A stretch of 64,000 nt of DNA from Ptychomitrium polyphyllum (GCA_973851085.1 OZ316775.1:558001-622000), one strand, 5' to 3'. Positions 16,073 through 42,007 are shown, counted from the stretch's first letter. Program-made: numbers and translations. The notes: generated by a model from the letters alone, not told the origin.

Positions 16073-16959
<887 letters not shown>

Positions 16960-17968
16960 GGCGACGACGGAGACACGGAGCCCCGAGCGAGAAAGTGAAG
17001 GAAGGAAAGGCAGTGTGCGTGTGGGCTTGCTGCCCTAATCCCCTTCTCGCCCCCTGCCCTCCCGCTGTTGCCCTAATTGGCCGGGCTTTGGTAGGGGTGC
17101 TGTTCCCCATTCTGTGTTGCTTTAGATCGACGTCCTCACCACGTTCCACTCGAACTACAGCATCGGTTCTCCGTTTGCTTTGCTGTTTCCGAAGTGCGAG
17201 CCCATTTCATTCGAAAATTCTACGACATGCGGGAAGGTGAGGTCATCTTGCAAGAGTGAGGAAAGCCGATTTTTCTTTTGGTGAGGGTAATGGCAACGAC
17301 GTAAGTTAGTTTCGGTTTTGTAATCGAGAAGGACAGGCAAGATTATTGCATAATGCGTGCAAGTAACATGGTATAGTTAAAGTACGCATATTCAACAATT
17401 ATTGTCAGGAACTCATTGGCTAGTTTGAAAAAATTTCGTTACGGGAATATTGTAGAAACTACAAATGACACACGTTAATCAGAAGTTTCCTTTCCATGTA
17501 TGCAAGATATAGTTTGTTAGTTGGCCAACATGTACTGAGATAAGTATTGTTGATTGCTGTTTTTTTTATACGCTTAAACAACGTGTACCAAAGTTTTAAG
17601 CATTTCACCTTCTGTATAGTAACGAATCAATTTAATATGATCATATAAATTTGGTACCCATATTAACCATAGAAAGATAAAATGAGAAGACAAAAGTAAA
17701 GGAAATATGACAAAACACCTATGGCCCCTATCACGTCCAAGATTTGATAGTGGATTACCCTTGTTCCTATGCAATTGTAAAAAGTAAAAAAATAAGTAAA
17801 TTCACAAGTGCAGACAGACGGATATCCTGATATTTAAAACCATTTCTTCCATACTACGCCCTAAAACCTAAAAGTGTAGCGAAACCCAACGGCAGAGATG
17901 GCAAAATAACTACTAGATCTAAAGTTACTTACTTAGTTGATAAAAACGCACAGGAAGTAGCCCTTTCC

Positions 17969-18068
17969 NNNNNNNNNNNNNNNNNNNNNNNNNNNNNNNN
18001 NNNNNNNNNNNNNNNNNNNNNNNNNNNNNNNNNNNNNNNNNNNNNNNNNNNNNNNNNNNNNNNNNNNN
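17969..18068. other. Assembly gap (100 N, placeholder size)
   Basis: Run of 100 n interrupting RPL8 copy B. Confidence 0.99.
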
Positions 18069-18371
18069 CACGTTGCCGATCGACAGAGTCGCCTTCTTGC
18101 CGCAGTACACGAACTGCCCCGAGTACATGCCCTCGGCGGCGATGAACCGCTCCTTCTGCCGTTTGAACCGGAACGGGTGCCGGAACGTCACCTTGCACAG
18201 CGGCGCCCCGCGCCCGGAGTCGTGCACCACCTCCGACACCACGCCCTTGATGTACCCGTTGCGCTCGGCGTAGTCCAGCGACCGGAACTGCGCGGGGCCC
18301 TTGCGGCGGTGCGTGTGGCTCCGGAAGATGGAGCCCGCTCCCTTGCGCTGGGCGCGGATCACACGGCCCAT
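18069..18371 (-). CDS. RPL8: 60S ribosomal protein L8, copy B (5' part only, runs into the gap)
   Basis: [10 protein letters not shown]...ATLSIGNV, then N. Has GVVSEV where A and C have GVLSEV, and a different 5' flank, so it is a distinct copy. Confidence 0.88.
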
Positions 18372-19947
18372 GGCGACGACGGAGGAAATGCAAAGGCGCA
18401 GAGAAACAGACACAGACACTGACACAAAGACACAAGGGAAGTCCCTACAGAGAGCGAGGGCGAAAAGAGGGCCTGCGGACTAGTGCTGCTGCGCCTTCTA
18501 CCCCACCGGCCGCCTCGTAACCCTAATTCGTGCGCGACCCATTTGCATGTTCCTTCCCTTGCGCTGGGTAGGGTATAAATGGTTGCTCCCTTAGACCCAC
18601 CCAGCGACTGGTTCTTGTAAGCGTTGATTGTATTGCAGTGCATGTGTTGATTTCCGTTTCAGAAGTCCGAATCTGATTATTGTTGAATCTAAATGCATCC
18701 GATGAGGTTTAAGTTATGTATGTCCTATAATATGGCAATAATGATTGCCGTTTTCAATTAAATCCAATTTAGATAAAACTTTTAAGGTTTTGTACAAAAT
18801 AAATTTAAAATTGTAGTTTTTTTATACATTTATTTTTCTTTGGAGATTTTGTTTATCATGTAAATGTTTTTTTTGGAGAAATTACATGATTTAAAGAGTA
18901 CATTCTTGAGTTAATTTATAAATTAACATTGCATATCAAGGTAGATGCAACTATCAAAAATGTATTATCATATAAATTCAAACTAGTAAATTATTACAAG
19001 AGTAGATATCTTAGATGCTCACTCTTATGTATCTTAATATGAAGTACACACTTGTAAAGTCTAGGTTTCTACAATAAATTGCAATTTCATTATTTGTTAA
19101 TTTTTGTTATCAAACCTCTTAGGTCCTTCAATCTAAAAATAATTCTAAAAAAATCTGTCTCATCCAAAAACAGTGTGTTAATGATAGAAAATACCTTTGT
19201 GGTTGAAATCCACTATTCAAAGAACAACCTTTATATATGCTGAGCAAAAGATTTATTCACTATTCTACATTTAAAGACAAAACATCATTCTAAAATAACT
19301 CAATCTACAATCACTATAACTAATATAAAATCATTAAAACATTAAAACAACTGCAAGAATAGATTGAAACAAATAAAACTTTGTACAATTTCATTAGAAG
19401 TAACTGTTGTACATTAATAAGGATAAAACCTAATCATTCAAATAATATAAGAACTAGTTACTACACTACTAACCTTACCAATGACATAATATAAAAACTA
19501 GCATATATTTTTAATTCTTTATTATATGGACTTTGCTGATACAATATACGTTGCAGGCTTAATGTTATTAATCTTGCAAATCCTAAAAAACCAAAACTAC
19601 CACACATCGTTGTCCATTACCCTCACCAAAAGAAAAATCGGCTTTCCTCACTCTTGCAAGGTGACCTCACCTTCCTGCATGTAGCAGAAATTTCGAATGG
19701 AACGAGCCCGCACTTCCGAAAAAGCAAGGCAAGCGGAGAACCGATGCTGTAGTTCGAGTGGAACGTGGCGACGACGTCGATCTAAAGCAACCCAGAATGG
19801 GGAACAGCACCCCTCCCAAAGACCGGCCAATTAGGGCAAGAGGGGGAGGGCAGGAGGCGAGAAGGGGATTAGGGCAGCAAGCCCACACGCTCACACCCTT
19901 TCCTTCTCTCCCTTCCTCGCTCAGGGCTCCGTGTCTCCGTCGTCGCC

Positions 19948-20833
<886 letters not shown>

Positions 20834-25210: not shown

Positions 25211-28200
25211 ATGGCGCAAATTCAAGCCAGTCTGCATGCCGTTGTCAGGTACATCAACTCGATCCTGAACCAGCTTTCTAAACCTCGAGGTCTTGACACT
25301 TGAACCTGGTGCAGTTGAACACGAAAGTATCTTTCTCAAACATATCTGAAATCTGATGGTGGTTGAATTTTTCCAAGTGGTTGTTCTATAATAAAATTGG
25401 TACACGAAGGAACTGAAAGAAGGATACGTTTCAAAATCAACAAACATGTATTGTTGGATTTAAGGGGGCCAATAATTTGCTGAAGGGTCAACCTCCAGCC
25501 CGATTTAAGTTTCTCGTCAATACTTGTCGAGTAATTGGCATAACATTTTGGGGACAGTTGAACACTGGAGGTGAAGGGCTGATTTTCTATTCAATTTATC
25601 TCTATTTCTAAACAAGTCCTGGCAAAGTAGGAGAGTCATTGCACTCAACAGGGGTATTTTGCAGAATATGAAAGGTAATAAATGGTATTGATTCTCATGC
25701 TCGATTGTTTGGATTTTGTCCTCAAGACTCTTGGTTCTAGTAGATGGTTTGTTATCAGAGTTTTCTGAACAGCTTCATCCACTAGAGCAGTGTAATCTGT
25801 ATTCGGCATCAAGTTTGCTTACATAATGGAATATTAAGTGAATATGGAGTAATCTACTGTTCCTTCGTTATGGGAGTTTAAGTGCTTTATGTGAAACTCT
25901 CTTCTCCTAAACCCAAAGAAAGATTTGGAAGCGGACCAACTTATGGTTGTGGCTTCCCTGTTTATTAAGTGGCGTGTTTAGGCGCTTGATACATCCTGGA
26001 ACTTTTAGTACCTTCGGTGACAATTGGAGCTGGGGTTCTTCTTAAAAAGATTAATGTGGAAAGGCGTACGGCTGCTATTATAATTATAAACAATCGTTGG
26101 GGCTTGATCTGTTTTGTGTTTGTGTTTCGGTGCAGACCATCGTTACAGTCCATTACTGCAGGAAGGTCGAGCAAAGAGCTGCCTTTGCAGCATGGACAAG
26201 TAAGTCATACTCGTGGTTCAATGTTCTAATGCGTCGATTTTGCATCAAGTTGTCAACACGGGAGAGTGTTGGGGCTGATTTCTTGGTTTAGTCGTTTGCA
26301 TCCTCATCGCATGGCCTTTCCTACATTTGACATGATGTTATTATTAATTTTTCGTTTGTGATTTTCGTTCCGCTTCGACCTTTTTGTAATATATCTTGTT
26401 TTGAATCTGATATTCTGAACGTTTGGAAAATATTTATGCTGTTATTGCAGGTTCCTAGAACCACCTTCTCTAACAAGGGGGACCCTATTTCACTTTCATG
26501 TTTTCGAGGAAGCTTACGAGGCACGCATTGGTTCTTAGGAAAAGCATCATCAAGAACTCCTGGAAGGTGCTTCACTTAGCAAATTGCTACCATGTATTTC
26601 ATGACTAACTCGAAGTTAATGTCGTCTCATTTTATCAATGAGTCCTTGTGCATGTGCTTGACCTGTGCATGTGCGTTTGTGCACTTCAGGAGAGGCGCGA
26701 ATATAAGGAGTCCTGTCGTCGCTGGGACCTCAGGAAATCACTCTCCTGAATTAGGAGGAATAACACTGACCGAGGACAATGCAAGCCTTTCTGTTTTGGA
26801 TGAATCACCTGGGTCTAGAGTAAGCTACACTACTGACACCGATAGTGAAGGTGAAGCTGAATACAGTCTGGCTTTTGATAATGAGAGCATGCCTGGTTCC
26901 ACTGTGGTTGGTATCGATGGAATGGACCAAGATAATCTGCTTATGGACGTAACTTTGAGCTTCTATGAGATGGGCATCAGGTATCTCCCTCAAACTAAAC
27001 TGGCATTTAAGTTTAAAGTTATATAATAGGTTTCCTTGATGAAGCGATTATCAATTCATCTAGAAACTGCGTACAGGAAAACATATGACACAGGAAATTT
27101 AGATGACCTGAACTTCCAAAATGTCCTGTCACCATGTGGCTTTGCTAGTGTTGCTTTTTCAGATTCCCACATTCGCATCGTGCCGTGAACTCAGTGTGGC
27201 TTTTACAAATGCTTTCATGGTTTTTTTACGATGCCTGACATTTGACTGCTGCATCCCTTCTAGAGATGAAGTTGACTAGGTGTTTCAGTCTTCGTACATA
27301 GCAAGTGTCCTCCTATTGTATTTTAATCGCCCATTTTCATTACGATTGTGAATAATCTGATTATCATCATAGTCGAAGCCCAAGATTAGTATTTCCCTCC
27401 GATCTGATTTCTATGTTCTTCATTTTATCAACAGTGTCCAGAGTGCACAAGTGCTCACAAAGGATAATCGCGTAGTGGACATATTTATTGTCTCGGACGC
27501 TGAAACGAGAACAGCCATTCCCGAGGATAGATGGCCAGACATCAAAGAGAAGATCTTTGCCAAATTAAAGCGACGTAATGTTCTCAATACCACTACTGGC
27601 GATCCCAAGTTAGCGGAACAAGTAAGCTCATCTCATGGTTCTTTTCTTTCTACGCAGATATCTCTCGTTGCTTTATATATATACCTTGTCTATCAGAAAG
27701 AGAGGTTCTAAGAGCAAACAACTGTAGAGGCCAATAAGTTGGTTGATCAATATGATGTTTAAACTGAGGATTGCCGATAATGATAGGCGAAGAGCCAACA
27801 AGTAGTTTAGGAGATATTGAAATGTGTGATGTGATAGGACTTACTGGATCACTTGTTCTGAACAGGTTACATTTTTGACCCAAACTTTGAACAAAGCAGT
27901 CCGTGATGATGGTAAAGAGGATGTGCTTGAAGCAGTAAGTTTTCAAAATTGGTATTATTGACTTTGCGGAAAATGTGAATCTTAGCATTGCTGAGTATTG
28001 GACTGGCTTTAAATGCGTTATACTTTACTGAAAGTGGATTGCAAATAGCCTTGAGAGGAGCATCAGTCGCCAGTCCCGGAGACGGTCTTGCATGCAGTGG
28101 TATGACACAAAGCAGTACTATTAATTTTATTTCTACGTGTTTGGATCAGGCTTTTTTCCTGCAAAATGGATTTGAAGGGTTACGTCATAAGGAAGATCCT

Positions 28201-31200
28201 CGTAAGCGCGCTGACTTGCTACGTTACATAGAGAAGATGGAGGAGAAAAAGGTATGGTCTTCATAGTTCGGTTTGCCATTTTTCTATCTCGAATACGCTT
28301 TGTAACACGTTAAATGTTTTCCTTGTTTTTACTCATAACATGATGTTTTTCTTAATATCGTGTACATCCATTAAAAGCCAAAGAGTTTCTCTTTAATGAA
28401 ATCGTTTCTTATCGGTGATCGAATTGCTGCAGATAACCGCAGTTATTCGTTTATTCTATTTGTATTCATCTCTTCTGAACGTAGCAGACGAAGCCCATAG
28501 TCATCGACTACGTCGAGAGCAGGTACTATTTTGAATTAGTCTTCGCGTGCACTCCTTGGAATTTGGTAGATGTTCCGGTTAATCGAGATTTGCAGCTGCA
28601 GAAATATCGTGATAGGGTTGAGGGGATGCTCATTGCAAATTATTACCTTCCTCCTTGTAATTCGTTCGACAAAGTTTTAGTTTGGGCCTTTTGAGTTTTG
28701 CAGGTGTGGGCTAGCAGAAATGCAACACCGCTTTGGTTTGCATCCTTTGATCACTCTCTAAGAGCATTTAAGAAGGAAAATGTAGGAGCAGCTGAACTTC
28801 AAGAACTGTTGAATCGAACTGAGGTTAGGCTCATTATTACTTTGGGCACCTGTGTTCGTTTTATTCAACAAATTATTTATTGCTTACGATGTCAGTACAT
28901 AAATTTCAAAGCAATTTGTCACTGGCAAACATCATATGCAAGAGCAGACATAATAACTATCACATGTTGATAGAATATCAAGTTTAGTATTTCTATTTTA
29001 ATGTGTTCTGCCAATCATGTGTGATAAATTCTGTACTGTGCCGTTCTAAATATTCTGTGTGCTTGTGGTGTCAGTACAATCCAGTCTTTACTGCTCATCC
29101 AACGGAGGCTCGGCGCAGAGAAGTTCTTACATGTTTGCATCGTATCTTCCTTCTCTGCAATGATCGCGAGGTGTGCTTCATATTTTCTCTTTGTCTCACA
29201 ATCGAAAAACTGTTTATCGTGCAATCTTGTTTTATCTTAGCACGCTTCGTTGCCTATTCATAGGAATAACTGCTAATCAGCGAGCCGCGCTTAGAATGTT
29301 GATTCGTCTTTTCGCCCTTTGTAAGGTCGTTGAAGGGGAAGGCTTCTCTGTTTGTTTAACCTTGAATGTGTGATTTCTGTTTTCGAATTTCAATTATTGC
29401 TTTCAGATTTTATTTCTTACTTCAAACTTTTGGCCTGTTATGAATCATTCTGGACTTTCCACATTGTTCCACAGTTAGTACATATGTGTTTCTCAGACTG
29501 CTTAAACTGCATATTGAGAAGAGAGCATTTTAATAAACTGGTAACTTTGTGGTATGTTATCTACAAAGCCCGCTGTGACACATCGATGGCATGCAGGATC
29601 CGAGACTTAGTCCAGCTCAGAAGGCAGAACTGGAGGTTGAAATTGAGGCTGAGGTAAGCATGATGGTTATCCATGTGGTCATTTTTCCATAGTTGTTACC
29701 ATTTTTGCCAAATACATGAGCCTTGATTAGCGACTAGAATTCATTTATCATTATATTTTGGTCGTTACAGGTCGAGATACTCTGGAGAACGGATGAGATG
29801 CGAGCAACAAAACCAACTGTCTTGGAAGAGATAGTTACAGGACTTGATTACTTCCGTTATTCACTTTTTGAGGCTGTGTGCACCACATATCGATATGCTG
29901 AAAACTCCGTTAATGTAAGTAATTTACTCATAAATTAGTATTTCTTGAAATTCACCTCAGTTTTAGCAGGAGGTAATGTTTCCTAACAGCACCTTGTAAC
30001 TGCCCATGTTGACAGGCTATATACCCAGATGAAGGTGTTGCTGTTCCGAGCTTTATTAAATTTGGATCGTGGATTGGTGGTGACCGTGACGGCAATCCTT
30101 TTGGTTAGTTTTGATCTTGTTGCAATCTACACATGCTTTTTTTCCCCTCTAGTGTGGTAAAGAGTGAAAAATCCTCAGGAAAAGTCTTGGTGTTATTGTG
30201 ATTCTTCGTAAGCTACTCATTTCTCCTGTTTACTCTTACACTGAACAATGAACGTGAGTATCTCTATTCTTCAGCATTAATGACTAAGTCAAAATCGCAA
30301 TGTACAGTATGTAGGGATTCTTATTCCGTTGTGGAATTTACCGAAGGGAATCTACTGTGGATTCACAATACACAGACACTAAGGAAACTCTCATCACTCT
30401 GTTGTTTAAAAGTGATGAAGTATATTTATTTGTGAGCAGTTACAGTGTCTTATCAAACCGCATGATAAATTAGACCACATTGGTAATGACGTCCTACTAC
30501 AATCTTTAGCAAGAATTCTTGGACTACAATTGTTCTACGTAAATACCGTAGTCTATAGTGGGCTAGCCAACTATATATTGACAAAGATATCCTATTTGGT
30601 TGGGTGAATCAGTTCGACCCGAAACAACAGTAATGGCAGCTTTGCTGGCAAGTCGCCTCATCCTGGCTGAATACATTCGTCGTGTCCGTGCATGTCAGGT
30701 GAAGCGACTTGCCTCTGAAAACTGTTTCGTTATTTGCATGTCGCAAATTCTAAGAGTTATAGATAGGTTTGCAGAGAAATAACTTTACTTTAGAATCTTA
30801 GCTATTTATTTGTTTATTTGTGTATTTTTATAAGTTAAAAAAAATTTCACGGGTGTGAGGTAACCATGTTGAAGGGGTACATGCACATGAACTTACCTCT
30901 ATTTGTGTTGGTAACCAAGAAGATTATCTAAGCGTAATATTGTTCCGTAGCACTTTTCCGTTTTGCTATGTGGCACTGCTCTGAGGTTATCCTCTTCCAA
31001 TCTCCTATGTTTTGAGATACAGAATTAGTGATTGAAGGATTGTCTTGTTACATTAGAAGAAAACCTTAAAGCATACAGTACTTGAGAATAGGTAGCGTTT
31101 TATGATTATATTATGTATGTTATAAAAAGAGTGGCCCATTCATTAAGAAACTACTTATTGTACATCTTTTTGGCAGGACACGTTGACGCACTCTCGGCTC

Positions 31201-34200
31201 ATCTGTGAAATATCACCAGAATTGTTGGAAAGCCTAGAAGAAGACAAGAAAGTGATGGAGCAGATTCCTGCAATTCGCTTTGATGGTGCCCTTTTTGAGC
31301 AAGTGCGTTCCTGATTAATATTGTGTTGGTATTCTTTGCTCTGCACATTTTAACTTGCAAATGCATACATTAGTTTCATATACCAGTTTTGATTGTGCTT
31401 TTTTCTACTTTTCTTTCAATTAACTTGAAGCATCAGTATTTCAGTTTTCTTATCAGTGATTTCAATTGCAATGAAGCAGGAGCCATACAGACTCAAACTG
31501 AGGGTCATGCGGCACCGACTTGAGCAAAGATTAAGGGGTGTCAATGCTTGCCTGCGTGAGTTAGGAAAGGCAGGCATGCATGATGAAGTATGTTGTCAGG
31601 TCACCAAACCCTGAATGATTTTAATTGTATGTGATTAATTGTACCTGAACTTTCAATACTGTTGATAGTGGTACCTTTGGTTATAAAAATTTACATTAAC
31701 AACAAGATTGGAAACTTGTAGCTATATCATATATTCTGGATAGCTGTAAAATCATCAACTAAAAAATCAATGTCATAGAGAATTGTAAAAAACCTAGTAC
31801 CTGCAAGAGATCATCAAGGCGAGAATGATACTTCATGTAATCTAGTTGATGTTCTTGACAGTCTAAGTAGGAATTTGTCATAGGAGTTGACATGCTTACA
31901 CGTACAGAAGTTCTTTAGTCATATGCTTGCATCTTATGACATGTTTCTTGTCTTTAATTAAAAAGGTGCTGTATTTGATGAATAGATGTTGCTTGAAATG
32001 AATAAAAGATCGTAACTGGTAATAAAACACATGTGGTGGTGAATATAAGCAGAACCGAAAGAGTAAAGACACTGACCTAGGGCACCTCATCTACTAGTAA
32101 AGGTATAATACTTTGAGTAAATTCTACTGATAATTGATGTTTAATAAGCTAACAGTTGAGCAAACTGTTAAGTCATTGATGCTGACATTATTAAACAGCA
32201 TATAACATGTAACAAGCTTTGGTTTTAAACAACCGGCTGCGCACACTTAAGGAGCGTTTTTCTAAGCTCATAAAAATTTCGGTTTAAAAAGAAAGGACCA
32301 TTATTCGGGTTTAAACAGTCAAGTTTCCAGTAGACTTTTAATTCATTATGGCCATTGAAGATCTTAGAGTGCTTACGTTGTGGATCGGTTGGTTGTGTTT
32401 GTAGTTGCTGATAGACATTGAGTTCAACATTGACGAGATCCCCGGACTGGACCCAAAGAAGGATGCTTATGTCAGTGAGGAACTGTTTCTGAGGGATTTG
32501 AAACTCATTGATGTGGGTCCCCTCTTACTCTCTTTAAACATGGCATTTGTAACATTATTCTGATTCGGTATAATCGTGCTTACATTAATAACAGTTTCTT
32601 TTGTAAGATGAATTAACTGGAAACTTATCTAAACTTCATGAAGTTCCTATCATTTCACAGAATGTTACAAAGCAATCTCGTTAGTAATGTCATCTGCGTC
32701 AAATTTCAAGCTATTGCCAAAGTACCTTCTTATTCTTATATGAAGTGTGTCTCTCTTGCGCACACAGCCTAATCAACGAAGTAAGTGTAGGTTATCGAAG
32801 TTGGTACGGTCAATGATGCTCTACTTGTATGCAGTTTTCTTTGCGCAAAGGTGGAGATATTCGCTTGGCGGATAGGAAATTGAAGGATTTGATCCGGCTG
32901 GTTGAAACATTTGGTTTCTATTGTTGCGCACTTGACGTCCGGCAGGAGTCAACAGTTCATTCTGAGGTATAACTGAATTTCTTTGGACGTGTTTTTCAAA
33001 ATATAAAGACGTTTGGGAAACACAACAGAACAGCACTTGGGCCTCTTGTTTTTTATTATTTTGCTGATAATGCATCTTGGAGTCAGTTATTTGTTTTTCT
33101 AAGTTAGAAGTATCACATGGACTTCTGAGGTTCTGGATGATTTTCATGGATTCAGACAACAAACGAGATTATTCGACTTTTAGGGCTGCATGACAATTAC
33201 AGCTCACTACTAGAGGAAGAGCGCATGAAGATGCTTGCAGAAGCGATCTCATCTCCACCTCCTGTGGAAAAAGTCGAGGTTTGTTTCTTGCCATCCTGTT
33301 TCTAAGTTTCTGCCGGGGTTTCAAAGCTGTTACAAGGTGTGGCAGTGTCCATCTAAGAGGCGGGCTGGTGTTCGCTCTCTGCAAGCAATATCTTTATTAT
33401 GGGTCCCTTTGAATTTACGTTGTTGATTTGACAACCGGTCTATTGCAAAAGGTTCAGCTGTATACCTGTGCTCGATGTACGAGTATGTTTTCAGACTCTC
33501 CCAGAGCTATTCATTTCTTTTAGAATGGGCATGCACTATGGACAGGATGATGTTTCACCTTCTGTTTGCCTTGAAAACTTATTGTATTCGTGTTTCCAGG
33601 GCTTATACAAAACTATGTCAGACTCTTCGAGGGAAGTAGTGGAGCTCTTCTTTGCCATGGCTGATATCAGGGAAAACATCTCAGAGAATTCTATAGCTTC
33701 CTATGTTATTTCTATGACTCGACACGCATCTCATGTGATGGAGGCAAGTGTTTCCTACCTCTTCTTTGCCAGTATCTTTTTGAATTATTATATGTTATTC
33801 TGAGACATCGAATCATTGGTACTGTGTCAGTCTCTTGACCTTCTTCACTTTTGCGAAAGGCTGGACCTTTTCAGATCCCTAGTGGAGTTCAAACCCGGTG
33901 AAATCTATGCAAATTAATATTTGATATGGGTATCTTTCTTCGATACAGTTCTCTTCCAACTCATTCTTCTTCGAAACAGGTCTTGTTTCTTGGGTGGTTT
34001 TCGTGCAAGAATTTACTCGAGAAAAAGGCGTCGGGAGAATGGAATGCACAGCTGGTGGTTGCCCCTCTTTTCGAAACTATTCCGGATTTGGAGGTAATGT
34101 CGAACTTCTTGAATACTGATCTGTTATGCGTACTCATTGCTGATACGAACAGTCATTTTCATGTCTCACGTGTTCATTGTTGTGCCACTTTAGTACGGCA

Positions 34201-37200
34201 GTAGTCTTTTGTGTTAGTGATGCGCTCGTTCACTTGCGGTCCACTTAGACGCGTTTTACAGAGAACCGGATAAGGATGTTCCACAATAGTCTACTATCCG
34301 GACATGTCTTTGATCATGGACCAAAGAGCCCGAAAAAGCTGTCATTGACTGCCAAATCCTTATGTTGCCTGCAGAACATGCCAGGAGCTTTAGAGTCACT
34401 TTTTAAAAACGATACATATAAAGCAATCTTGATGGCTTCTGGAGGTATTCAGGTATTTTTAGTCTGACAGTTGGACATGATATTACCTGCACTAGTATGT
34501 TGCACCCTGGAAAAACCATGAGCTAGATCGCTGTTCTTTTGAAGGTCGCCGATATGCTTGGTGGAACTGTTTTACATTTGAAGAGGATTCATGAGAAATA
34601 GCATGTTTTCAGGAAATTATGCTTGGGTACTCAGACTCCTGCAAAGATGGAGGTATTACAGCTAGTGCATACAACCTATACAAGGCTCAATCTGTAATCC
34701 AGAAACTTACAGTCGAGGCAGGAGTGAAATCCTGCATTTTCCATGGTCGTGGTGGTACTGTTGGACGTGGAGCTGGCCCAACTCACGAGAGTATCTTATC
34801 TCAGGTAATTTGTACGATGACTGCATATCCCTATTTTCTTTAATCCTTCTGATCAGAAACTTCAGGTTGCTAAGAAATACGAGATCTTCTGGTTAGATGC
34901 ATGCTGTGGTACAAAAGTCTCGGCTATAGGAACCCTGTTCACAAATATGTCCTTCTTGGGTGTAACATCTGCTCACCTCTCCTTAGATTCGCGTTCCTAT
35001 GAACCTGCTTCACTTTTGTAATTTTTATCTTCTTTTCACAAGTTCTAGACATTCATATTCTTTTAAATGATTGTCGTATAATGATTCTAGAGTGTGCTGA
35101 GTCCTGAATAGCACTATCAAGGACGTGCCTCTTTAATTGAATTCCCTTTCACTTGCTGGCAGCCACCAGGCAGCGTGGATGGGAAAATAAAGTTCACAGA
35201 GCAAGGAGAAGTTATCACTTATCGTTATGGTAATGCTCAAACGGCTGCATACGAATTGACTGTAAGTTATTCATACCTTGTCATTCTGGTTAGTTCATGT
35301 ATGTATTATTGACATGACGTTGGTGCAATCTCAATTGCGAATGCTGTTGTTTGTCTATATGGTTTGTCTAAACTCCAAATCCAGAACACTTCAGACCACG
35401 CTAGTGCAATTATATACTAGTAATTTTGTGATTCCGTCAAATAGCTTCTAAAGGCTTCTGCTCCTTAATTTGCGATCAGGGTTTTAATCACAAGATCTTG
35501 TTATGGCAGGTTGGTATTACAGGGCTTCTAAAAGCCAGTCATCCTGCAACTCGAGAACGTGGCAATTATGAGAAGGTGAGCAACCCCTTGACTTTTGAAT
35601 AGCAATGTGCACGCAGTAGATAGGTTTAAATCTGGTAGCATGTTTGCAATTTGAAGAATGTGTTGAATTCGGATCCATCTATTTGCCGTTCCTCATCCAA
35701 TCTCGCAACCCGGCGTGTTATTATGCGTGCATTTGAACAGATGTGCCAATTTGGTAGCGGAGAAGCTGCGCAACCGCCTAGTAACATGTTTTACCGTTAT
35801 CTGTTACTTAACATACAGTGTTGTGTTATGACAGTACTTCTCTACCATGGAACAGCTAGCGACAGCTGCAGAGAAGTCCTACCGTGATCTGACCGATGAG
35901 ACGGAAGGATTTTATGATTATTTCTATGAATCAACCGTCGTAAACGAAATTGGTCTCATTAACATTGGCAGTCGTCCTGCTCGTCGTAAGGCTGCTGTTC
36001 GAGACAAGTCTTCATTGCGTGCCATTCCCTGGGTCTTCGGTTGGGCTCAGGTGTGTCTTTACCCCACAACGATGAAATCTTTTTGAAATCTTTTGAAACC
36101 TTTGTCAAGGAAGGATTTCTGCAAGCTAAGTACTTGCTTGTTAAGTGTGTTTTGCACAGGTCATGTTCAGTTCATTATAGTAGGTACCATAGAATAGACC
36201 TACCTAACTAACCTCTCATTGCTTCCCTTATCATCTAGGTTGGAGGAAAGGCAGAGTCTAGGAGTAGACTTCATTACTCATGGCTGGATTCGCGGTCCTT
36301 GGTCAAATTGTGCCTACGCATGACATAAATCTGCCTAAACGTATTCATAATTTTAGTTGATGGAAAGCTGAACCGGTATCTTCATCAAGAAAGCTAAGTT
36401 GTAAGGACTGTCAGGCGAATAATATTCAGTCGAAACAATTTTGTCTTTGTGGAACTCATATTTGTTTTATTCTGAATGTGTGTGTGACAGTCCAGGCATA
36501 CTTTGCCAGCATGGTACGGGGTGGGCAGCGGCATTGCAAGTTACACACGAGATGAACCAGAGCGAATTCAGGAGCTACAGATCATGTATCAGGAGTGGCC
36601 CTTCTTTCGCACTTTTCTGTCAAATGTGCAGGTATTTCTCCTTTTCATTCAATCAATGATTAGAGGCCGAAAGTTCATTGGCAGTCTTGAACTGGTTGAT
36701 TTGATTGAATCATGTCGGCTCACTGGGGTGCACCAAATTTTTCGAAACAAGAATGTCACTTTGTCTAAGCAATTTCCGTCTTGGTTTGATCTTACCAATG
36801 CAAAGAAAATAGGCATCACTTAAAGCTTTTGACGTATAAATCTTCAATTTTTCTTTAATTCCGTCTCGGGGCTGTCTGTAAAGGAAGCCTTAACAAGTTT
36901 GTCATTGGTATGTTGACAGATGTCTTTATTCAAAGCATCAATGGAGATTGCTCAAGAATATGCACGGTTATGCTCGTACGTGTCCTGCCCATTTCCTTGC
37001 TATGCATGCTGAGTTGCAACTTGATTTCACTTTTAAAAATACTATTGGCTATGTGCACCTGATTAGGAGAAAATTTCAAGTTTCGTGCTATCCTTCCAAG
37101 CACAACAGGTCTGTTGTCGTCGTTTAGTCGAGCGATATTCAAAATGCAATGTTTCAGAGAGAAGATCGTGTTGTTGGTAGCTTTAGAGTGCACGAAATAG

Positions 37201-38454
37201 ACGTCGGCATATAATAATCTTAGTTTGAAATGATCCCTTATGTGGCTTTACGAACACATGAAATCCGAGGCTTACTGTCAGTCTTTGAACTCTTCACGCA
37301 CTAGTACTTATAGTTATGTATCCATCATTTTCAATGCAGAAATCGAATCACACAAAAGCTGGTGTTTGATCTAGTAGCTCAAGAGTATTATCTTACCAAG
37401 GCTCAGGTTATTCACACTTTCATTTTTACTCTAGTTATGAGCTAAAGTTGCTAAAGAACAATGTCCTTCACTATGTATGAGGTTGATTATTGGTGGAACT
37501 ACAAGGAATTGATTGTTCATGGAAATGCTACATTCCATGGGTTTTGGTACATAGAGTAGTAAAGCGTTATACACTGTTATTTCCTAGTAGAGTAGATTCA
37601 AGATGTTCCATGTGTTTTATTTCCAGTCAATCAGGCCTTAAATATCGACGAGGTTACAGGTGTCTTAAGATTAGTGTAGCCTGTACTCGGAATCGAACTT
37701 GGTCGTAGGAGGGATTTCCTTGCAGTGTCTAATCGTTCTTATTGCAAATGTTTATTACTTAAAGCTAATTTGACTGGGTTATTAAACTATATTCCTTCTT
37801 CTTAGTCATAAATATGATAGCATATCTCTTTCCATTGGTTAACTGAAAGATGCCTGGGTTGGGTGGTACAGTTTATGATGGTTTCGCAGCAAAATAAGCT
37901 GCTCGAGGACAATCCTTCATTGGAAAGTTCATTTGGCACGCGACGAAAATATTTGGATCCTCTCAACCATCTTCAGGTATTTCATCTTATTGAAAACTCT
38001 TGATATGCGATTGTTTGAAACTATCACCTGTAATGAGTATCTCTGACAAGGATGCCACATTCCTTAATGAATTTGGCGTTAACCTATTGAGGACCACAAA
38101 TCCAAAAACGGCTGATTGAGGTGGTCCTTGACGGGGTAATGAGCACCTAATATGTCCTATTTTATGTTCACCATGGTCAGAATCAGCCAGTTCATGCCGG
38201 CATAATCCTTCAGATTCTGCTTTTCTTACCAAAATACTCTACTGAGAAAGATTGATTTTTTGCTACACCATGCAGTGGTAGACCTCAACTTTTTATGATA
38301 AAGAGCTCTAATTCTTGTCAACCTGATGTGGAAGGTCATTTTATTGGGCCGTCAAAGAGACCCCACAGCATCTGAGGAGCATAAGCCTCTATGGGAGAAG
38401 CCTTTGCTCAGGACCATCAAAGCCATTGCCAGCAACATGCGTAACACTGGCTAA
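25211..38454 (+). CDS. ppc: Phosphoenolpyruvate carboxylase with N-terminal transit-peptide-like region and ACT domain; 30 coding exons, about 1157 aa
   Basis: Hand-spliced exons: 25211-25248, 26136-26199, 26451-26566, 26690-26980, 27435-27621, 28150-28251, 28433-28522, 28704-28823, 29075-29170, 29597-29653, 29771-29914, 30016-30103, 30613-30698, 31177-31302, 31480-31587, 32405-32512, 32835-32966, 33156-33278, 33600-33743, 33980-34093, 34375-34452, 34613-34804, 35163-35261, 35510-35575, 35835-36050, 36491-36631, 36920-36975, 37340-37406, 37872-37976, 38335-38454. Total 3474 nt, phases compatible, no internal stop. PEPC motifs: [80 protein letters not shown]-terminal MRNTG*. The three smallest 5' exons are the least certain. 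Confidence 0.93.
26874..27560 (+). other. ACT domain (ACR/GlnD-like) in PEPC exons 4-5
   Basis: Spliced sequence [76 protein letters not shown] matches the pattern 'DN.....T.v.v...D..gLL..v...l....l.i..A.i.t.......D.F.v.d' of plant ACR proteins and GlnD. Confidence 0.8.
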
Positions 38455-40830: not shown

Positions 40831-42007
40831 ATGGTCATGGCCGCGACCTCCTTCTCCATGGCGGCTCTCACCGCCGCCTTGCCGTCCGCCGTGGCCACCA
40901 GGAGCACTAGTACTCCCATCTGCGCACGCGCGGCTGGGGTGAGCGTCATCCGGACCTCCCCTTTGGTGGCCAGGTCGCACACCGTGGCGAAAGCTGTTGG
41001 GTTTCAGGCGTTCGATGGTCTTCGCAGCGAAAATGCGTTGCAGCTGCGTACTGGTAAGTCTCAGTGTCTAGGTTCTTGGGAAAAGTCATGATTCTGGGGA
41101 ATGATTGGGTTGGGTGGTTTTTGGGTTTGTGTTGGCGTCTTTTCTTTTTAGTTTTTGTTTTCTGAGGTGTTGGTTGATGAAGCGCTGGTGTTCGGTTGGT
41201 TAACCTCGTGGTTGAACTCCACGTTCTTGTACCTGGATCTTTGGGCTAGGTGAATCGAGGTAGTAGACTTGGAATTGACTACTGAGGTTATCAGCGGTTT
41301 CGAACATCGAAGTTTTATTAGGTCTGGAAATGTGCATTATAGGGCGTGTTCGATGTGCGTTCGAGAGCTGATCCAAAAGTGGTATGAATGAATGAAGCGG
41401 ATGTAAGGTGACTGAGTCTTGGAATACATAGCATGTTTTTGGGTTGTGTCCAAAATGTTTAATGTTAGATTTGGCATGCAATAGTATGTAAGAAGACGTT
41501 CCTTGAAGTTTCGACATGGAATTAGGTTAGAATGGTGAATTGTATCAGAATACATGCAGAAGACTGGAAAGTTTTGATACGGACTATCTTTGTTTGACAG
41601 GATGCACTTTTGAGTCGATGGGTTTGGGAATCACCAATGGTGCTAAGTGGTTCGCAATGAGACACGGTCGCAAAATTCACCGTCTGGGCAGACCTGCCGA
41701 CCAGAGGCGCGCTCTCCTCAGAGGTCTAACCACCGAAATTCTTCGTCACGGTAGAATCAAAACCACCCGTGCCCGTGCCACGGCTATGCGCAAGTACGTC
41801 GACCACATGATTACTCTTGCTAAGGGAGGCTCCCTTCATCAAAGACGGCAAGCATTAGGGTTCCTTTACGATAAACAGTTAGTGCATTCTCTGTTCGCTG
41901 AGGTGCCTGAGAGATATGGTGAGAGAAATGGTGGTTACACAAGGATTATCCGGACAATGCCTCGAAAGGGCGACAATGCCCCCATGGCATTTATTGAGCT
42001 CGTTTAG
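40831..42007 (+). CDS. RPL17: Plastid 50S ribosomal protein L17 (bL17c) precursor; exons 40831-41053 and 41601-42007, about 209 aa
   Basis: [37 protein letters not shown]...[27 protein letters not shown]. Exon 1 is an Ala/Ser/Thr-rich transit peptide. Phase-1 GT-AG intron 41054-41600. Confidence 0.95.

What the first reader, a model, noticed from the sequence alone, without database searches (positions are those of the whole stretch)
28150..38454. PEPC core is neither PTPC nor canonical plant BTPC and looks independently acquired from bacteria
Seen: [80 protein letters not shown], and C-terminal W.KPLLRTI.AIA..MRNTG. The stretch before EPYR is short. Established: vascular-plant PTPC and BTPC both have [11 protein letters not shown] and GYSDSGKDAG; PTPC ends QNTG; BTPC has a long disordered insert before its PYR motif, absent here. 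Inference from recalled sequences: the motif set resembles PEPCs of sulfur-oxidising or phototrophic proteobacteria, suggesting a third, horizontally acquired plant PEPC lineage. Its 29 spliceosomal introns and plant neighbours argue against contamination.
Basis: partly seen in the sequence, partly recalled or inferred. Interest (0 to 1): 0.85.

Follow-up and report, generated by a model that had tools for sequence, protein, structure and literature searches.

The report
Third plant PEPC lineage with ACT domain
This moss gene encodes a phosphoenolpyruvate carboxylase that belongs to neither of the two recognised plant classes: its core sits among PEPCs of sulfur-oxidising and phototrophic gammaproteobacteria, so it was likely acquired from bacteria very early in algal evolution, and its added ACT sensor domain is predicted to let amino acids control it.

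Summary
All quoted motifs are present, and they belong to an intact gene that is larger than flagged: 31 coding exons at 25211-38454 (+), 1180 aa.

- **Relatives.** The protein is 92% identical to a Ceratodon protein. It belongs to a clade found in a prasinophyte, Mesostigma, Chlorokybus, Zygnematophyceae, mosses, liverworts and a lycophyte. No fern or seed-plant member was seen.
- **Phylogeny.** In ML trees the clade has 100/100 support. It nests inside Chromatiales/Thiotrichales-type gammaproteobacterial PEPCs, with the Cyanophora PEPC as sister (97/96). It lies far from the clade that holds PTPC, BTPC and E. coli Ppc.
- **AU tests.** These reject union with BTPC (p 1e-42), PTPC (p 4e-5) or a cyanobacterium (p 6e-6).
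- **Coexistence.** A published table shows PTPC, BTPC and this type together in Marchantia, Anthoceros and Spirogloea.

The catalytic residues are intact. Plastid location and amino-acid control are inferred and untested.

On prior art, a 2012 paper flagged one Physcomitrella PEPC as clustering with bacteria. I found no description of the clade or of the ACT fusion. The scan's notes hold no earlier record of it.

The parts
25211..38454 (+). Whole coding span of the ACT-PEPC gene: 31 coding exons, 30 introns, 3543 nt CDS including the stop, 1180 aa
   Evidence: Spliced model guided by P0007. 1084 of 1181 aligned columns are identical to Ceratodon M758_1G193600. There is no internal stop.
25211..25248 (+). 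Exon 1 (start codon; [12 protein letters not shown])
26136..26199 (+). Exon 2 (presequence-like)
26451..26566 (+). Exon 3 (presequence-like)
26690..26980 (+). Exon 4. Its 5' part ends the presequence-like stretch. Its 3' part (from about 26859) encodes the first half of the ACT domain.
   Evidence: The place 26859 is my arithmetic from the exon table.
27435..27621 (+). Exon 5: second half of the ACT domain (to about 27591) and the start of the PEPcase core (from about 27610)
27866..27934 (+). Exon 6
28150..28251 (+). Exon 7 (the finding's start)
28433..28522 (+). Exon 8
28704..28823 (+). Exon 9
29075..29170 (+). Exon 10 (TAHPTE; catalytic His367)
29597..29653 (+). Exon 11
29771..29914 (+). Exon 12
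30016..30103 (+). Exon 13 ([12 protein letters not shown])
30613..30698 (+). Exon 14
31177..31302 (+). Exon 15
31480..31587 (+). Exon 16 (EPYR)
32405..32512 (+). Exon 17
32835..32966 (+). Exon 18 (DVRQES; Arg666)
33156..33278 (+). Exon 19
33600..33743 (+). Exon 20 ([14 protein letters not shown]); its donor is the only GC-AG intron
33980..34093 (+). Exon 21 (PLFETI; Glu795)
34375..34452 (+). Exon 22
34613..34804 (+). Exon 23 ([24 protein letters not shown] loop)
35163..35261 (+). Exon 24 (IKFTEQGEV...YELT)
35510..35575 (+). Exon 25 ([10 protein letters not shown])
35835..36050 (+). Exon 26 ([12 protein letters not shown])
36491..36631 (+). Exon 27 ([10 protein letters not shown])
36920..36975 (+). 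Exon 28
37340..37406 (+). Exon 29
37872..37976 (+). Exon 30
38335..38454 (+). Exon 31 (…IASNMRNTG and the stop codon)

Best explanation
The window holds an intact 31-exon moss gene for a 1180-residue phosphoenolpyruvate carboxylase whose catalytic core belongs to a third PEPC lineage of the green line, separate from PTPC and BTPC and nested among PEPCs of sulfur-oxidising and phototrophic gammaproteobacteria. It was therefore likely taken from such a bacterium before green algae and glaucophytes diverged, and was then inherited vertically.

**Shown**
- The gene model is intact.
- The clade exists, from a prasinophyte through Mesostigma/Chlorokybus and Zygnematophyceae to mosses, liverworts and a lycophyte.
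- The clade is placed among gammaproteobacterial PEPCs.
- Union with BTPC, PTPC or a cyanobacterium is rejected.
- The catalytic, metal-binding and aspartate-site residues are conserved.
- A GlnD/ACR-like ACT domain and an unstructured Ser/Thr/Arg-rich N-terminus lie ahead of the core.

**Inferred**
- The protein is an active PEPC (PEP + bicarbonate gives oxaloacetate + phosphate).
- The N-terminus is a plastid transit peptide.
- The ACT domain binds an amino acid, most likely glutamine or a related nitrogen-status signal, and tunes the enzyme allosterically. This would couple anaplerotic carbon supply to nitrogen assimilation in the plastid.
- The lineage was lost in core chlorophytes and in ferns and seed plants.
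For: **Gene model.** 31 exons, with 29 GT-AG and 1 GC-AG introns and no internal stop. 1084 of 1181 columns are identical to Ceratodon P0007.

**Eukaryotic setting.** The neighbours are Tubby, class-3 lipase, R2R3-MYB, ribosomal L17 and uL2 genes. Contigs from two runs of one sample are colinear with the introns.

**Family.**
- Pfam PEPcase E 4.5e-268 over residues 230-1181 of the orthologue.
- NCBIfam PRK00009 scores 829 bits against a cut-off of 815.
- 12 of 13 E. coli catalytic, metal or Asp-site positions are identical; the thirteenth is K to R.

**Clade membership.** Ranks 1-18 score 667-1406 bits, then there is a gap to 578. Cluster names include Physcomitrium, Sphagnum and Pterosperma.

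**Distance from the plant classes.**
- Core identity is 47-49% to Thiohalomonas, Thiohalobacter and Halochromatium. It is 35.5% to BTPC, 32-33% to PTPC and 30% to E. coli.
- PTPC structures score 369-383 bits. The 150th of the 50%-identity representatives still scores 438 bits.
- Motif states are shared with the gamma type. BTPC and PTPC share the other set: [33 protein letters not shown].

**Trees.**
- 90 rows, quick, PMSF: ACT clade 100, inside a 48-row gamma clade 100.
- 50 rows, careful, LG+G4: 100/100 for each.
- 50 rows, careful, PMSF: 100/100 for each, with the sister (Cyanophora + P0131) at 97/96.

**AU tests.**

**Coexistence.** All three types occur in Marchantia, Anthoceros and Spirogloea by the CD-search table of PMC8784020.

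**ACT domain.**
- GlnD C-terminal ACT region, E 1.5e-10.
- Pfam ACT at E<0.01 in 8 of 17 clade members; Mesostigma scores 37.6 bits against a cut-off of 27.
- The AF2 model has strands and helices in the order b-b-a-b-b-a at residues 132-223.

**N-terminus.** Residues 1-60 hold 2 acidic, 7 basic and 13 Ser/Thr residues. pLDDT is under 50 for residues 1-129. This region is variable across the clade.

**Precedent.** An N-terminal ACT domain is required for glutamine activation of Chlamydomonas AMA2. GlnD's ACT domains are needed for its Gln response (passages of preprint 10.1101/2024.03.07.583849).
Against: **Sampling of the plant classes.**
- My BTPC and PTPC rows could only be fetched by a length filter (1090 aa or more). 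They are atypically long gene models, some fused or truncated.
- No canonical-length BTPC from a bryophyte, lycophyte or fern was in the tree.

**Placement within the gamma clade.**
- Only one glaucophyte and one unnamed metagenome protein form the sister group. That node is weaker under LG+G4 (83/93) and unresolved in the 90-row quick tree.
- The immediate bacterial sister is not resolved; the surrounding nodes have 81-91% support.
- Several 'UNK' rows in the gamma clade come from metagenomes of unknown origin and could be eukaryotic.
- The tree is unrooted, so the direction of transfer rests on nestedness alone.

**Function.**
- Pfam's ACT model finds no match at E<0.01 in the closest orthologue itself.
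- The Gly of the usual ACT ligand loop (PGLL in Mesostigma, GLL in two of the four unnamed algal members) is Asn in land plants (DQ[DE]NLL). Ligand binding may therefore differ or be lost.
- No targeting predictor, localisation, expression or enzyme data for this gene were available.

**Loss in ferns and seed plants.** This rests on absence from top-hit lists and from one 17-species table.
Confidence: 0.8

Rival explanations
1. It is simply the bryophyte orthologue of plant BTPC (AtPPC4/RcPPC4 type). It looks different because seed-plant BTPC evolved fast, lost the ACT domain and gained its disordered insert.
For: The C-terminus is RNTG. There is no SIDAQLR-type N-terminal phosphorylation motif. 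By the operational rule quoted in PMC4196954 it would be called a BTPC. The NCBIfam bacterial PEPC model passes its cut-off. P. patens has no PRK00009-type BTPC in the table of PMC8784020.
Against: The AU test rejects ACT + BTPC + chlorophyte Ppc2 as one clade (lnL lower by 575, p 1e-42). Two 100/100 branches separate them. BTPC shares its motif states with PTPC, not with this protein. Marchantia (PTQ41595 versus PTQ42341), Anthoceros (AANG012509 versus AANG007402) and Spirogloea (SM000031S11583 and SM000092S24507 versus SM000126S26288 and SM000312S11989) each carry a PRK00009-type BTPC and this type side by side.
Confidence: 0.03
2. The lineage is an old eukaryotic (Archaeplastida) gene, and the gammaproteobacteria obtained it from algae. 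Alternatively, greens and glaucophytes acquired it in two separate transfers from similar donors.
For: The tree is unrooted. The stem of the ACT clade is long (0.43). The immediate bacterial sister is unresolved. The Cyanophora link is only 83/93 under LG+G4.
Against: The eukaryotic group is nested inside three successive bacterial-rich nodes: 91/92, 98/97 and 100/100. These hold many genera of Chromatiales, Thiotrichales and relatives. All 19 best genome loci are bacterial, about 930-970 aa long and without ACT. Under the better-fitting PMSF model, Cyanophora + P0131 is sister at 97/96.
Confidence: 0.12
3. Bacterial contamination or a recent, moss-specific transfer.
For: The core looks bacterial by motifs and identity. 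One paper treated a Physcomitrella PEPC (A9SLH0) as a singular HGT candidate (PMC3521007).
Against: The gene has 30 spliceosomal introns, eukaryotic neighbours and colinear DNA contigs. Orthologues occur across streptophytes and in a prasinophyte, with branching that follows the species tree.
Confidence: 0.01
4. The gene is real and of the third lineage, but the N-terminal module is not a working sensor or transit signal. The ACT-like fold would be a structural or oligomerisation element, and the enzyme would be cytosolic or mitochondrial.
For: The loop Gly typical of ligand-binding ACT domains is replaced by Asn in land plants. Pfam ACT scores are mostly below the gathering score. No localisation data exist.
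Against: The module is conserved in all 17 aligned members, across Chlorophyta and Streptophyta. The ACT-like region is identical between the window protein and Ceratodon over residues 120-179. An N-terminal ACT domain confers glutamine control on another algal plastid enzyme.
Confidence: 0.25

Closest known systems
Plant and green-algal bacterial-type PEPC (BTPC: Arabidopsis PPC4 / castor RcPPC4 type; chlorophyte Ppc2)
   Same: Both are PEPcase family enzymes with a C-terminal RNTG. Neither has the N-terminal SIDAQLR phosphorylation motif. Both are nuclear genes with many introns.
   Different: Core identity is 35.5%. The motif states differ: TAHPTE, WIGG…[13 protein letters not shown] and GWAQSR here, against TAHPTQ, WMGG…NPN, GYSDSGKDAG and FAWTQTR in BTPC. 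The BTPC insert is absent: 177 residues against 286-440. This protein has an ACT domain and a presequence-like N-terminus. It falls in a separate clade, and the AU test gives p 1e-42. It coexists with BTPC in three species.
Plant-type PEPC (PTPC; maize, Flaveria and Arabidopsis structures 1JQO, 3ZGE, 5FDN)
   Same: Same fold and chemistry. The catalytic and Asp/malate-site residues align.
   Different: Core identity is 32-33%, and PTPC structures score 369-383 bits. PTPC ends in QNTG where this protein ends in RNTG. This protein has no phosphorylation motif. It falls in a separate clade, and the AU test gives p 4e-5.
PEPCs of Chromatiales/Thiotrichales-type gammaproteobacteria (Thiohalomonas, Halochromatium, Thiohalocapsa, Thiohalobacter, Thiomargarita, Methylophaga)
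   Same: These are the nearest relatives of the core: 47-49% identity, the same motif set, and the same 100/100 clade.
   Different: The bacterial proteins are about 930-970 aa, without an ACT domain or N-terminal extension, and their genes have no introns. The window gene is eukaryotic.
Cyanophora paradoxa PEPC (EukProt tig00021319_g20252, P0127)
   Same: It is sister to the ACT clade in the careful PMSF tree (97/96) and has the same motif states.
   Different: It is 1000 aa with no ACT domain. Identity to the window core is 45%.
Physcomitrella patens A9SLH0 in Peng et al. 2012 (PMC3521007)
   Same: It is a moss PEPC reported as one of 19 non-bacterial sequences that cluster within bacterial branches, and it lies on a 1.5-Mb scaffold. 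It is probably the Physcomitrium orthologue (Pp3c12_10250 / XP_024391121), but I could not check the sequence.
   Different: That paper treated it as a singular HGT candidate. In the parts I read there is no clade, no ACT domain and no distribution. The figures are images that I could not read.
ACT-fused or ACT-regulated plastid enzymes and sensors: Chlamydomonas alpha-amylase AMA2, starch phosphorylase STA4, Arabidopsis ACR11, E. coli GlnD
   Same: All have a GlnD/ACR-like ACT module. In AMA2 it is N-terminal to a plastid enzyme, and glutamine activation needs it.
   Different: The catalytic partner differs. PEPC is not among the ACT-fused enzymes listed in the passages I read of that preprint. 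The ligand of this ACT domain is unknown.
Rice chloroplast PEPC Osppc4 (recalled from memory, not from a call)
   Same: It would be a functional analogue: a plastid-located PEPC that supports ammonium assimilation.
   Different: Osppc4 is, as I recall, a PTPC with a transit peptide. It is not of this lineage and has no ACT domain.

Membership tests
PEPcase (Pfam PF00311; EC 4.1.1.31) | Full-length match to the family profile | tested here: met
   The orthologue P0007 (92% identical) matches at E 4.5e-268, residues 230-1181, covering 919/919 profile positions. The window's spliced protein could not be handed to the tool, but its exons carry the motifs.
PEPcase (Pfam PF00311; EC 4.1.1.31) | Catalytic His/Arg, metal-binding Glu/Asp and Asp-inhibitor site residues (E. 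coli numbering recalled from memory: H138, R396, E506, D543, H579, R581, R587, K620, R699, R713, K773, R832, N881) | tested here: met
   12 of 13 positions are identical in the window protein, and K620 is R. E. coli shows the expected letter at all 13 positions.
PEPcase (Pfam PF00311; EC 4.1.1.31) | Carboxylation of PEP to oxaloacetate | not testable with these tools
   Needs an enzyme assay.
Plant-type PEPC (PTPC) | C-terminal QNTG | tested here: not met
   The window protein ends in MRNTG.
Plant-type PEPC (PTPC) | N-terminal Ser phosphorylation motif (S[IV]DAQLR) | tested here: not met
   Absent from the window protein. It is present in PTPC_Cocos at residue 11; the other three PTPC rows are N-terminally odd gene models.
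Plant-type PEPC (PTPC) | Falls in the PTPC clade | tested here: not met
   Two 100/100 branches lie between them. AU test p 3.9e-5.
Bacterial-type plant PEPC (BTPC, PPC4 type) | C-terminal (R/K)NTG and no N-terminal phosphorylation motif (operational rule, PMC4196954) | tested here: met
Bacterial-type plant PEPC (BTPC, PPC4 type) | Long insert between the DRDGNP and RQES blocks | tested here: not met
   177 residues here, against 286-347 in two BTPC rows and 345-440 in two chlorophyte rows. The BTPC rows are long gene models.
Bacterial-type plant PEPC (BTPC, PPC4 type) | Falls in the BTPC clade | tested here: not met
   AU test p 1.1e-42, lnL lower by 575. Trees.
Chromatiales/Thiotrichales-type gammaproteobacterial PEPC clade | Core nested in that clade and sharing its motif states | tested here: met
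   28-row clade at 100/100; 48-row clade at 100; motifs.
ACT domain (PF01842 and relatives; GlnD/ACR type) | Profile match | tested here: inconclusive
   Pfam ACT matches at E<0.01 in 8 of 17 clade members, and Mesostigma scores 37.6 bits against a cut-off of 27. P0007 itself has no Pfam ACT match. NCBIfam GlnD models match P0007 residues 133-224 at E 1.5e-10, far below their whole-protein cut-offs as expected for one domain.
ACT domain (PF01842 and relatives; GlnD/ACR type) | Beta-alpha-beta-beta-alpha-beta type fold | tested here: inconclusive
   The AF2 model shows E132-137, E145-152, H157-167, E170-180, E183-192 and H201-223 at pLDDT 63-83. No fold search was run on the isolated domain.
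ACT domain (PF01842 and relatives; GlnD/ACR type) | Binds a small ligand (amino acid) | not testable with these tools
   Needs binding assays. The loop Gly is Asn in land plants.
Plastid-targeted protein | Cleavable transit peptide | not testable with these tools
   Composition and disorder only. No targeting predictor was available.

The most novel reading that the evidence does not exclude
ACT-PEPC is a third, overlooked class of plant PEPC. It would be a plastid enzyme of gammaproteobacterial origin that entered the Archaeplastida ancestor, gained a GlnD/ACR-type sensor domain in the first green algae, and has served since as an amino-acid-gated (probably glutamine-gated) link between CO2/PEP carboxylation and nitrogen assimilation. 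It persists in bryophytes and club mosses and was lost in ferns and seed plants. In Physcomitrium, which has no BTPC, it would be the only non-PTPC PEPC.
Probability: 0.3. Interest if true: 0.8.

Novelty: new variant of a known kind. Interest (0 to 1): 0.66.

Why it matters
Plant PEPC biology is organised around two classes, PTPC and BTPC. Reviews, CAM/C4 studies and gene-family surveys use that scheme.

This gene belongs to a third class that those surveys drop or mislabel:
- In PMC8784020 its members were scored 'PEPcase superfamily' and left out of the tree.
- NCBI calls the Physcomitrium protein 'uncharacterized'.
- By its C-terminus the protein would be filed as BTPC.

The class has a separate bacterial ancestry. 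It is conserved from prasinophytes and the earliest streptophyte algae to bryophytes and a lycophyte, and it carries a sensor domain that no characterised PEPC has.

That gives three directly testable questions in Physcomitrium and Marchantia:
- Where is the enzyme located?
- What does its ACT domain bind?
- Is it the ancestral way of matching carbon skeletons to nitrogen supply in plastids?

It also affects how 'bacterial-type PEPC' counts and expression in non-seed plants should be read.

Tried and rejected
**Searches that gave nothing**
- The whole genome is not held.
- The scan's own notes gave nothing by place, words or sequence. The word hits concern unrelated bacterial aminotransferase-PEPC fusions.
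- No RNA holder is listed. The two runs found (one sample, one study) are contigs colinear with the genomic DNA and show no splice joints. They give no direct expression or splice evidence for this gene. The only hint is indirect: full-length orthologue ORFs lie on contigs of about 4.4-4.6 kb (P0005, P0012). For a gene with this many introns those would have to be spliced transcripts.

**Fetching BTPC and PTPC**
- They were not in the best 120 (exon query).
- They were not in the best 120 (567-aa bacterial fragment against proteins of 994 aa or more; swamped by Burkholderiales).
- They were not in the best 150 representatives.
- They appeared only when candidates were limited to 1090 aa or more.

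**Tree-building runs that did not finish**
I then trimmed each row to the PEPC core and used a faster setting.
- The AU test under PMSF on 90 rows did not finish in three calls and was dropped. The AU tests reported are under LG+G4 on 50 rows.

**Steps not taken**
- The ACT domain was not folded alone, and no structure was compared with solved folds.
- No complex prediction was run.

**Literature**
- Searches for an ACT-PEPC fusion, a third clade, or the gene identifiers returned only Peng et al. 2012, for A9SLH0.
- Of the 13 papers that hold both 'phosphoenolpyruvate carboxylase' and 'ACT domain', none is about such a fusion, judged from the listing alone.
- Figures S1-S3 of Peng et al. are image PDFs and could not be read.
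- The supplements of the Isoetes paper, which might show where its 'bacterial-type' genes fall, were not opened.

Full report
**1. What is in the sequence**

A tblastn of the closest full-length relative against the window, followed by a splice-site-aware refinement, shows that the motifs belong to one gene larger than the flagged span.

- The gene has 31 coding exons from 25211 to 38454 and 30 introns (29 GT-AG, one GC-AG after exon 20).
- The CDS is 3543 nt with no internal stop, and the protein is 1180 residues.
- The protein is identical to Ceratodon purpureus M758_1G193600 (P0007, 1181 aa) in 1084 of 1181 aligned columns.
- The flagged start, 28150, is the first base of exon 7. The span holds 24 introns, not 29.

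The setting is eukaryotic. Neighbouring ORFs match Tubby, class-3 lipase, R2R3-MYB, ribosomal L17 and two inverted copies of ribosomal uL2. Contigs of two runs of one sample cover the locus colinearly, introns included. The source is a moss close to Ceratodon. No whole genome is held.

**2. Anatomy of the protein**

*PEPC core.*
- On the 92%-identical orthologue, Pfam PEPcase covers residues 230-1181 (E 4.5e-268).
- NCBI's bacterial PEPC equivalog PRK00009 passes its cut-off (829 against 815 bits).

*ACT domain.*
- Residues 133-224 match the C-terminal ACT region of GlnD models (best E 1.5e-10).
- Across 17 aligned clade members, 8 match Pfam ACT at E<0.01. Only Mesostigma was seen to pass the gathering score (37.6 against 27). 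Eight match the plant ACR9-like and eight the bHLH ACT-like models.
- An AlphaFold2 model made with the 17-row alignment has mean pLDDT 71.6 and pTM 0.69. Residues 132-223 form strand-strand-helix-strand-strand-helix at pLDDT 63-83. The last helix runs into the first helix of the PEPC core.

*N-terminus.*
- In the same model, residues 1-129 have pLDDT below 50.
- The first 60 residues of the window protein hold 2 acidic, 7 basic and 13 Ser/Thr residues.
- This part is highly variable across the clade.
- These are the usual marks of an organellar presequence, but no targeting predictor was available.

*Active site.* I recalled thirteen E. coli positions for catalysis, metal binding and the aspartate inhibitor site, and checked them against the fetched E. 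coli Ppc. Twelve are identical in the window protein and one is Lys to Arg. All ACT-clade rows agree at all thirteen.

**3. Relatives**

*Exon search.* A 64-residue exon, searched against longer proteins, gave 3677 hits at E ≤ 0.001 among 3698 candidates; 120 were listed.
- The best named hits are Ceratodon (two paralogues, chromosomes 1 and 4), Sphagnum, Riccia, Marchantia paleacea, Calypogeia, Diphasiastrum, Spirogloea, Mesotaenium and Mesostigma.
- Next come gammaproteobacteria (Thioalkalivibrio, Arenicella, Thiohalobacter, unnamed MAGs) at 67-75% identity.
- No fern or seed plant is among the 120.

*Representatives search.* Against 1.84 billion representatives at 50% identity, the whole clade collapses to one representative.
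- The next hit is a 945-aa metagenome protein (885 bits, 48%).
- The 150th hit still scores 438 bits.
- Solved PTPC structures score only 369-383 bits, and E. coli Ppc 356.

*Length-limited search.* A search limited to proteins of 1090 aa or more gave 143 hits at E ≤ 0.001; 120 were listed.
- Ranks 1-18 (667-1406 bits) are all of this type. They add Chlorokybus, two MMETSP transcripts and three metagenome proteins.
- After a gap come two metagenome proteins (541-578 bits), and then everything else at 390 bits or less.
- That remainder includes seed-plant 'PPC4' BTPCs (326-338 bits) and chlorophyte Ppc2 (324-349).

*Cluster look-ups.*
- One MMETSP cluster is named as Pterosperma sp. CCMP1384, a prasinophyte.
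- P0012 is Sphagnum.
- P0127 is Cyanophora paradoxa.
- The cluster of P0005 holds Physcomitrium XP_024391121 (1179 aa), which NCBI calls 'uncharacterized protein'.

*Species genomes.* A scan of bacterial and archaeal species genomes found relatives in 593 of 598 matched stretches and kept the best 80.
- The 19 best loci (L002-L020, 40-49% identity) are Thiohalomonas, Methylophaga, Halochromatium, Thiohalocapsa, Cocleimonas, Piscirickettsiaceae, Ca. Thiodiazotropha, Thiotrichales, Thiomargarita, Thiobacillus, Ca. Porisulfidus and unnamed Gammaproteobacteria or Proteobacteria MAGs.
- The scan's patterns (WIGGDRDG, E[VI]MLGYSD) were taken from the query, which favours such hits.

**4. Motifs and identity**

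A motif table was made for 40 fetched proteins.

| Group | Motif states |
|---|---|
| ACT type, Cyanophora, nearest metagenome proteins | [27 protein letters not shown], …RNTG |
| 11 seed-plant BTPC, 8 chlorophyte Ppc2 | TAHPTQ, GYSDSGKDAG, FAWTQ(T/N)[11 protein letters not shown] in 18 of 19 |
| 4 PTPC | [33 protein letters not shown] |

- Of the 17 BTPC/Ppc2 rows with an intact C-terminus, all end in RNTG.
- Of the 2 PTPC rows with an intact C-terminus, both end in QNTG.
- BTPC and PTPC therefore share derived-looking states that this protein lacks.

Identity of the window's core, over aligned columns:

| Compared with | Identity |
|---|---|
| Thiohalomonas | 49.1% |
| Thiohalobacter | 48.9% |
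| Halochromatium | 46.9% |
| Cyanophora | 45.4% |
| Cyanobacterium (Lyngbya) | 36.1% |
| BTPC | 35.5% |
| Chlorophyte Ppc2 | 34.1% |
| PTPC | 32-33% |
| E. coli | 30.4% |

**5. Trees**

*Row choice.* I trimmed 90 rows to the PEPC core and aligned them. The rows were:
- the window protein and 18 other proteins of its type;
- 9 further proteins of unknown origin, or eukaryotic without an ACT domain;
- 28 of the 80 genome loci, plus E. coli;
- 8 further named bacteria, two of them cyanobacteria;
- 8 BTPC, 6 chlorophyte Ppc2, 4 PTPC and 7 other eukaryotes.

*90-row quick tree* (LG+C20+F+G4 by PMSF, SH-aLRT, 912 columns).
- The 19 ACT-type rows form a clade (100).
- That clade lies inside a 48-row clade (100, stem 0.46) whose named members are the gammaproteobacteria listed above.
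- BTPC + Ppc2 (100) and PTPC (99) lie in a separate 25-row clade (100, stem 0.58) with E. coli, gregarines and a chytrid.

*50-row subset.* To afford bootstraps I cut the set to 50 rows before seeing any careful tree. I dropped:
- 8 ACT-type rows: Ceratodon chr1, P0005, Calypogeia, Riccia, P0024, P0138, P0175, P0503;
- 4 BTPC rows: Morella, Camellia, Tetracentron, Crotalaria;
- 3 Ppc2 rows: Chlamydomonas UWO241, Chlorella, Scenedesmus;
- 4 other eukaryotes: Symbiodinium, Blabericola, P0467, P0468;
- 21 bacterial or unknown rows: P0122, P0230, P0231, P0234, Arenicella, the Actinomycetota MAG, Trichothermofontia, N2M, MFD02832, Thiohalocapsa, Cocleimonas, YF4, Thiobacillus MAG2, the Alphaproteobacteria MAG, Jeotgalibacillus, Massilia, Ancylobacter, Streptococcus, Moraxella, Acidocella, Gordonia.

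*Careful trees* (ultrafast bootstrap / SH-aLRT):

| Node | LG+G4 | PMSF |
|---|---|---|
| ACT clade | 100/100 | 100/100 |
| Gamma + ACT clade (28 rows) | 100/100 | 100/100 |
| PTPC/BTPC/E. coli clade | 100/100 | 100/100 |
| ACT + (Cyanophora + P0131) | 83/93 | 97/96 |

- In the PMSF tree the enclosing nodes, which are rich in bacteria, have 91/92 and 98/97.
- Inside the ACT clade the order follows the species tree. Unnamed and prasinophyte algae branch first, then Chlorokybus + Mesostigma, then Zygnematophyceae, and then the lycophyte, liverworts and mosses. The window protein sits next to Ceratodon.

| Grouping held together | lnL lower by | p-AU |
|---|---|---|
| ACT + BTPC + Ppc2 | 575 | 1.1e-42 |
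| ACT + PTPC | 562 | 3.9e-5 |
| ACT + Lyngbya | 229 | 6.2e-6 |

An AU test under PMSF on the 90 rows did not finish.

**6. Independent check from a published table**

Supplementary file 1 of PMC8784020 is a CD-search table for 17 species. I read part 1 and searched the rest.

- In Marchantia, Anthoceros and Spirogloea it lists a pfam00311 'specific' PTPC and a PRK00009 'specific' BTPC (hit from residue 19).
- In each of the three it also lists a third protein, scored only 'PEPcase superfamily', whose hit starts at residue 358-413 and runs to the end at 1132-1213. These are PTQ42341, AANG007402, SM000126S26288, SM000312S11989 and SM000111S18828.
- Physcomitrella has PTPCs and Pp3c12_10250 (361-1179) but no PRK00009 BTPC.
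- Two of the Spirogloea identifiers are my P0016 and P0018. So the three types coexist in single genomes.
- By the paper's Methods passage, only genes with the two 'specific' domains were kept. This type was therefore left out of its tree.
- No row with this pattern appears for Azolla, Selaginella (the four rows in part 1), Isoetes, Gnetum, Amborella, Arabidopsis, rice, pineapple, Kalanchoe or Amaranthus in the part I read.

**7. Earlier print**

*Peng et al. 2012 (PMC3521007).* I read the abstract, passages, part 2 of Results and Table S1.
- It lists Physcomitrella A9SLH0, on a 1.5-Mb scaffold, among 19 non-bacterial sequences that cluster within bacterial branches. The others are 15 haloarchaeal sequences, Populus, Ricinus and Tetrahymena.
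- This is probably the Physcomitrium orthologue. I could not fetch A9SLH0 to check, and the tree figures are unreadable images.

*The two-class scheme.*
- Chi et al. 2014 (PMC4196954, passages) define BTPC by (R/K)NTG.
- Wickell et al. 2021 (PMC8566536, passages) use the two-clade scheme.

*Searches for the fusion or the clade.*
- Seven further searches found no description. They covered an ACT-PEPC fusion, a third clade, a bacterial origin in streptophytes, and the gene identifiers.
- The library lacks most subscription journals, so this is not proof of absence.

**8. How it most likely works**

*Shown:* an intact PEPC active site and aspartate site, a conserved ACT-type module directly ahead of the core, and a presequence-like N-terminus.

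*Inferred:*
- The enzyme makes oxaloacetate from PEP and bicarbonate in the plastid.
- The ACT module binds an amino acid and shifts activity.

*Precedents.* The nearest come from passages of preprint 10.1101/2024.03.07.583849.
- Glutamine activation of Chlamydomonas alpha-amylase AMA2 needs its N-terminal ACT domain.
- GlnD's ACT domains are needed for its glutamine response.
- ACR11 acts on the GS/GOGAT cycle.

*Caution.*
- The Gly of the ligand loop is kept in Mesostigma (PGLL) and in two of the four unnamed algal members, P0139 and P0175 (GLL). It is Asn in P0134, in Chlorokybus, and in the Zygnematophyceae and land plants (DQ[DE]NLL).
- Expression of this particular gene could not be shown.

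**9. Verdict**

- This is a member of an old third PEPC lineage of the green line. Its ancestry is gammaproteobacterial, it carries an ACT domain, it is overlooked by the PTPC/BTPC scheme, and it appears absent from ferns and seed plants.
- It is a new variant of a known enzyme family, not a new kind of system.
- The main open points are the thin and length-biased BTPC/PTPC sampling, the single glaucophyte sister, and the untested location and regulation.

Noticed in passing
window 16076-17034 (-), 17928-18479 (-), 19873-20830 (+); run of 100 N near 18000: There are two inverted copies of a ribosomal protein uL2 (RPL8-type) gene in G+C-rich DNA (52-56%); both match Pfam Ribosomal_L2_C. Between them lies a third N-terminal fragment with the same [16 protein letters not shown] start, next to an assembly gap of 100 N.
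   Followed up: partly
window 10233-11309 (+), 11439-13651 (-), 41531-42004 (+), 50850-52007 (-): The neighbouring genes are a Tubby-family protein, a class-3 lipase, a ribosomal L17 (organellar type by its Pfam family) and an R2R3-MYB. They were used only as context for a eukaryotic locus.
   Followed up: partly
alignment A1, columns about 255-262; window exon 4, about 26900-26940: The loop between the first ACT strand and helix reads PGLL in Mesostigma and GLL in two of the four unnamed algal members (P0139, P0175). It reads DQ(D/E)NLL in Zygnematophyceae and land plants, with Asn also in Chlorokybus and P0134. The usual ligand-loop glycine is therefore replaced, and the new state is conserved.
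   Followed up: no
P0007 and P0010 (Ceratodon chromosomes 1 and 4): Ceratodon keeps two paralogues of this gene, 87% identical to each other. The window's gene is the counterpart of the chromosome 1 copy.
   Followed up: partly
trees: E. coli Ppc falls with 100/100 support in the clade that holds PTPC, BTPC, gregarine and chytrid PEPCs, apart from the Chromatiales/Thiotrichales-type PEPCs. Gammaproteobacteria thus carry two very different PEPC types, each tied to a different eukaryotic group.
   Followed up: partly
P0474 (Nowakowskiella sp. JEL0407, 1742 aa): A chytrid fungus protein carries a PEPcase domain of the PTPC/BTPC-side clade, fused in the gene model to gamma-tubulin-complex domains. 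One paper read here states that PEPC is absent from fungi.
   Followed up: no
P0190 (1668 aa), P0432 (Symbiodinium, 1440 aa), P0122 (1268 aa); Other PEPC fusions appear in the hit lists: with transketolase domains (metagenome), with histidine-kinase and receiver domains (Symbiodinium), and with an EamA transporter domain (metagenome, next to Thiobacillus in the tree). Some may be gene-calling artefacts.
   Followed up: no
P0131 (1103 aa, metagenome): An unnamed metagenome protein is the closest relative of the Cyanophora PEPC (100/100). It has an N-terminal extension of about 150 residues with no Pfam match on record, and its organism is unknown.
   Followed up: no
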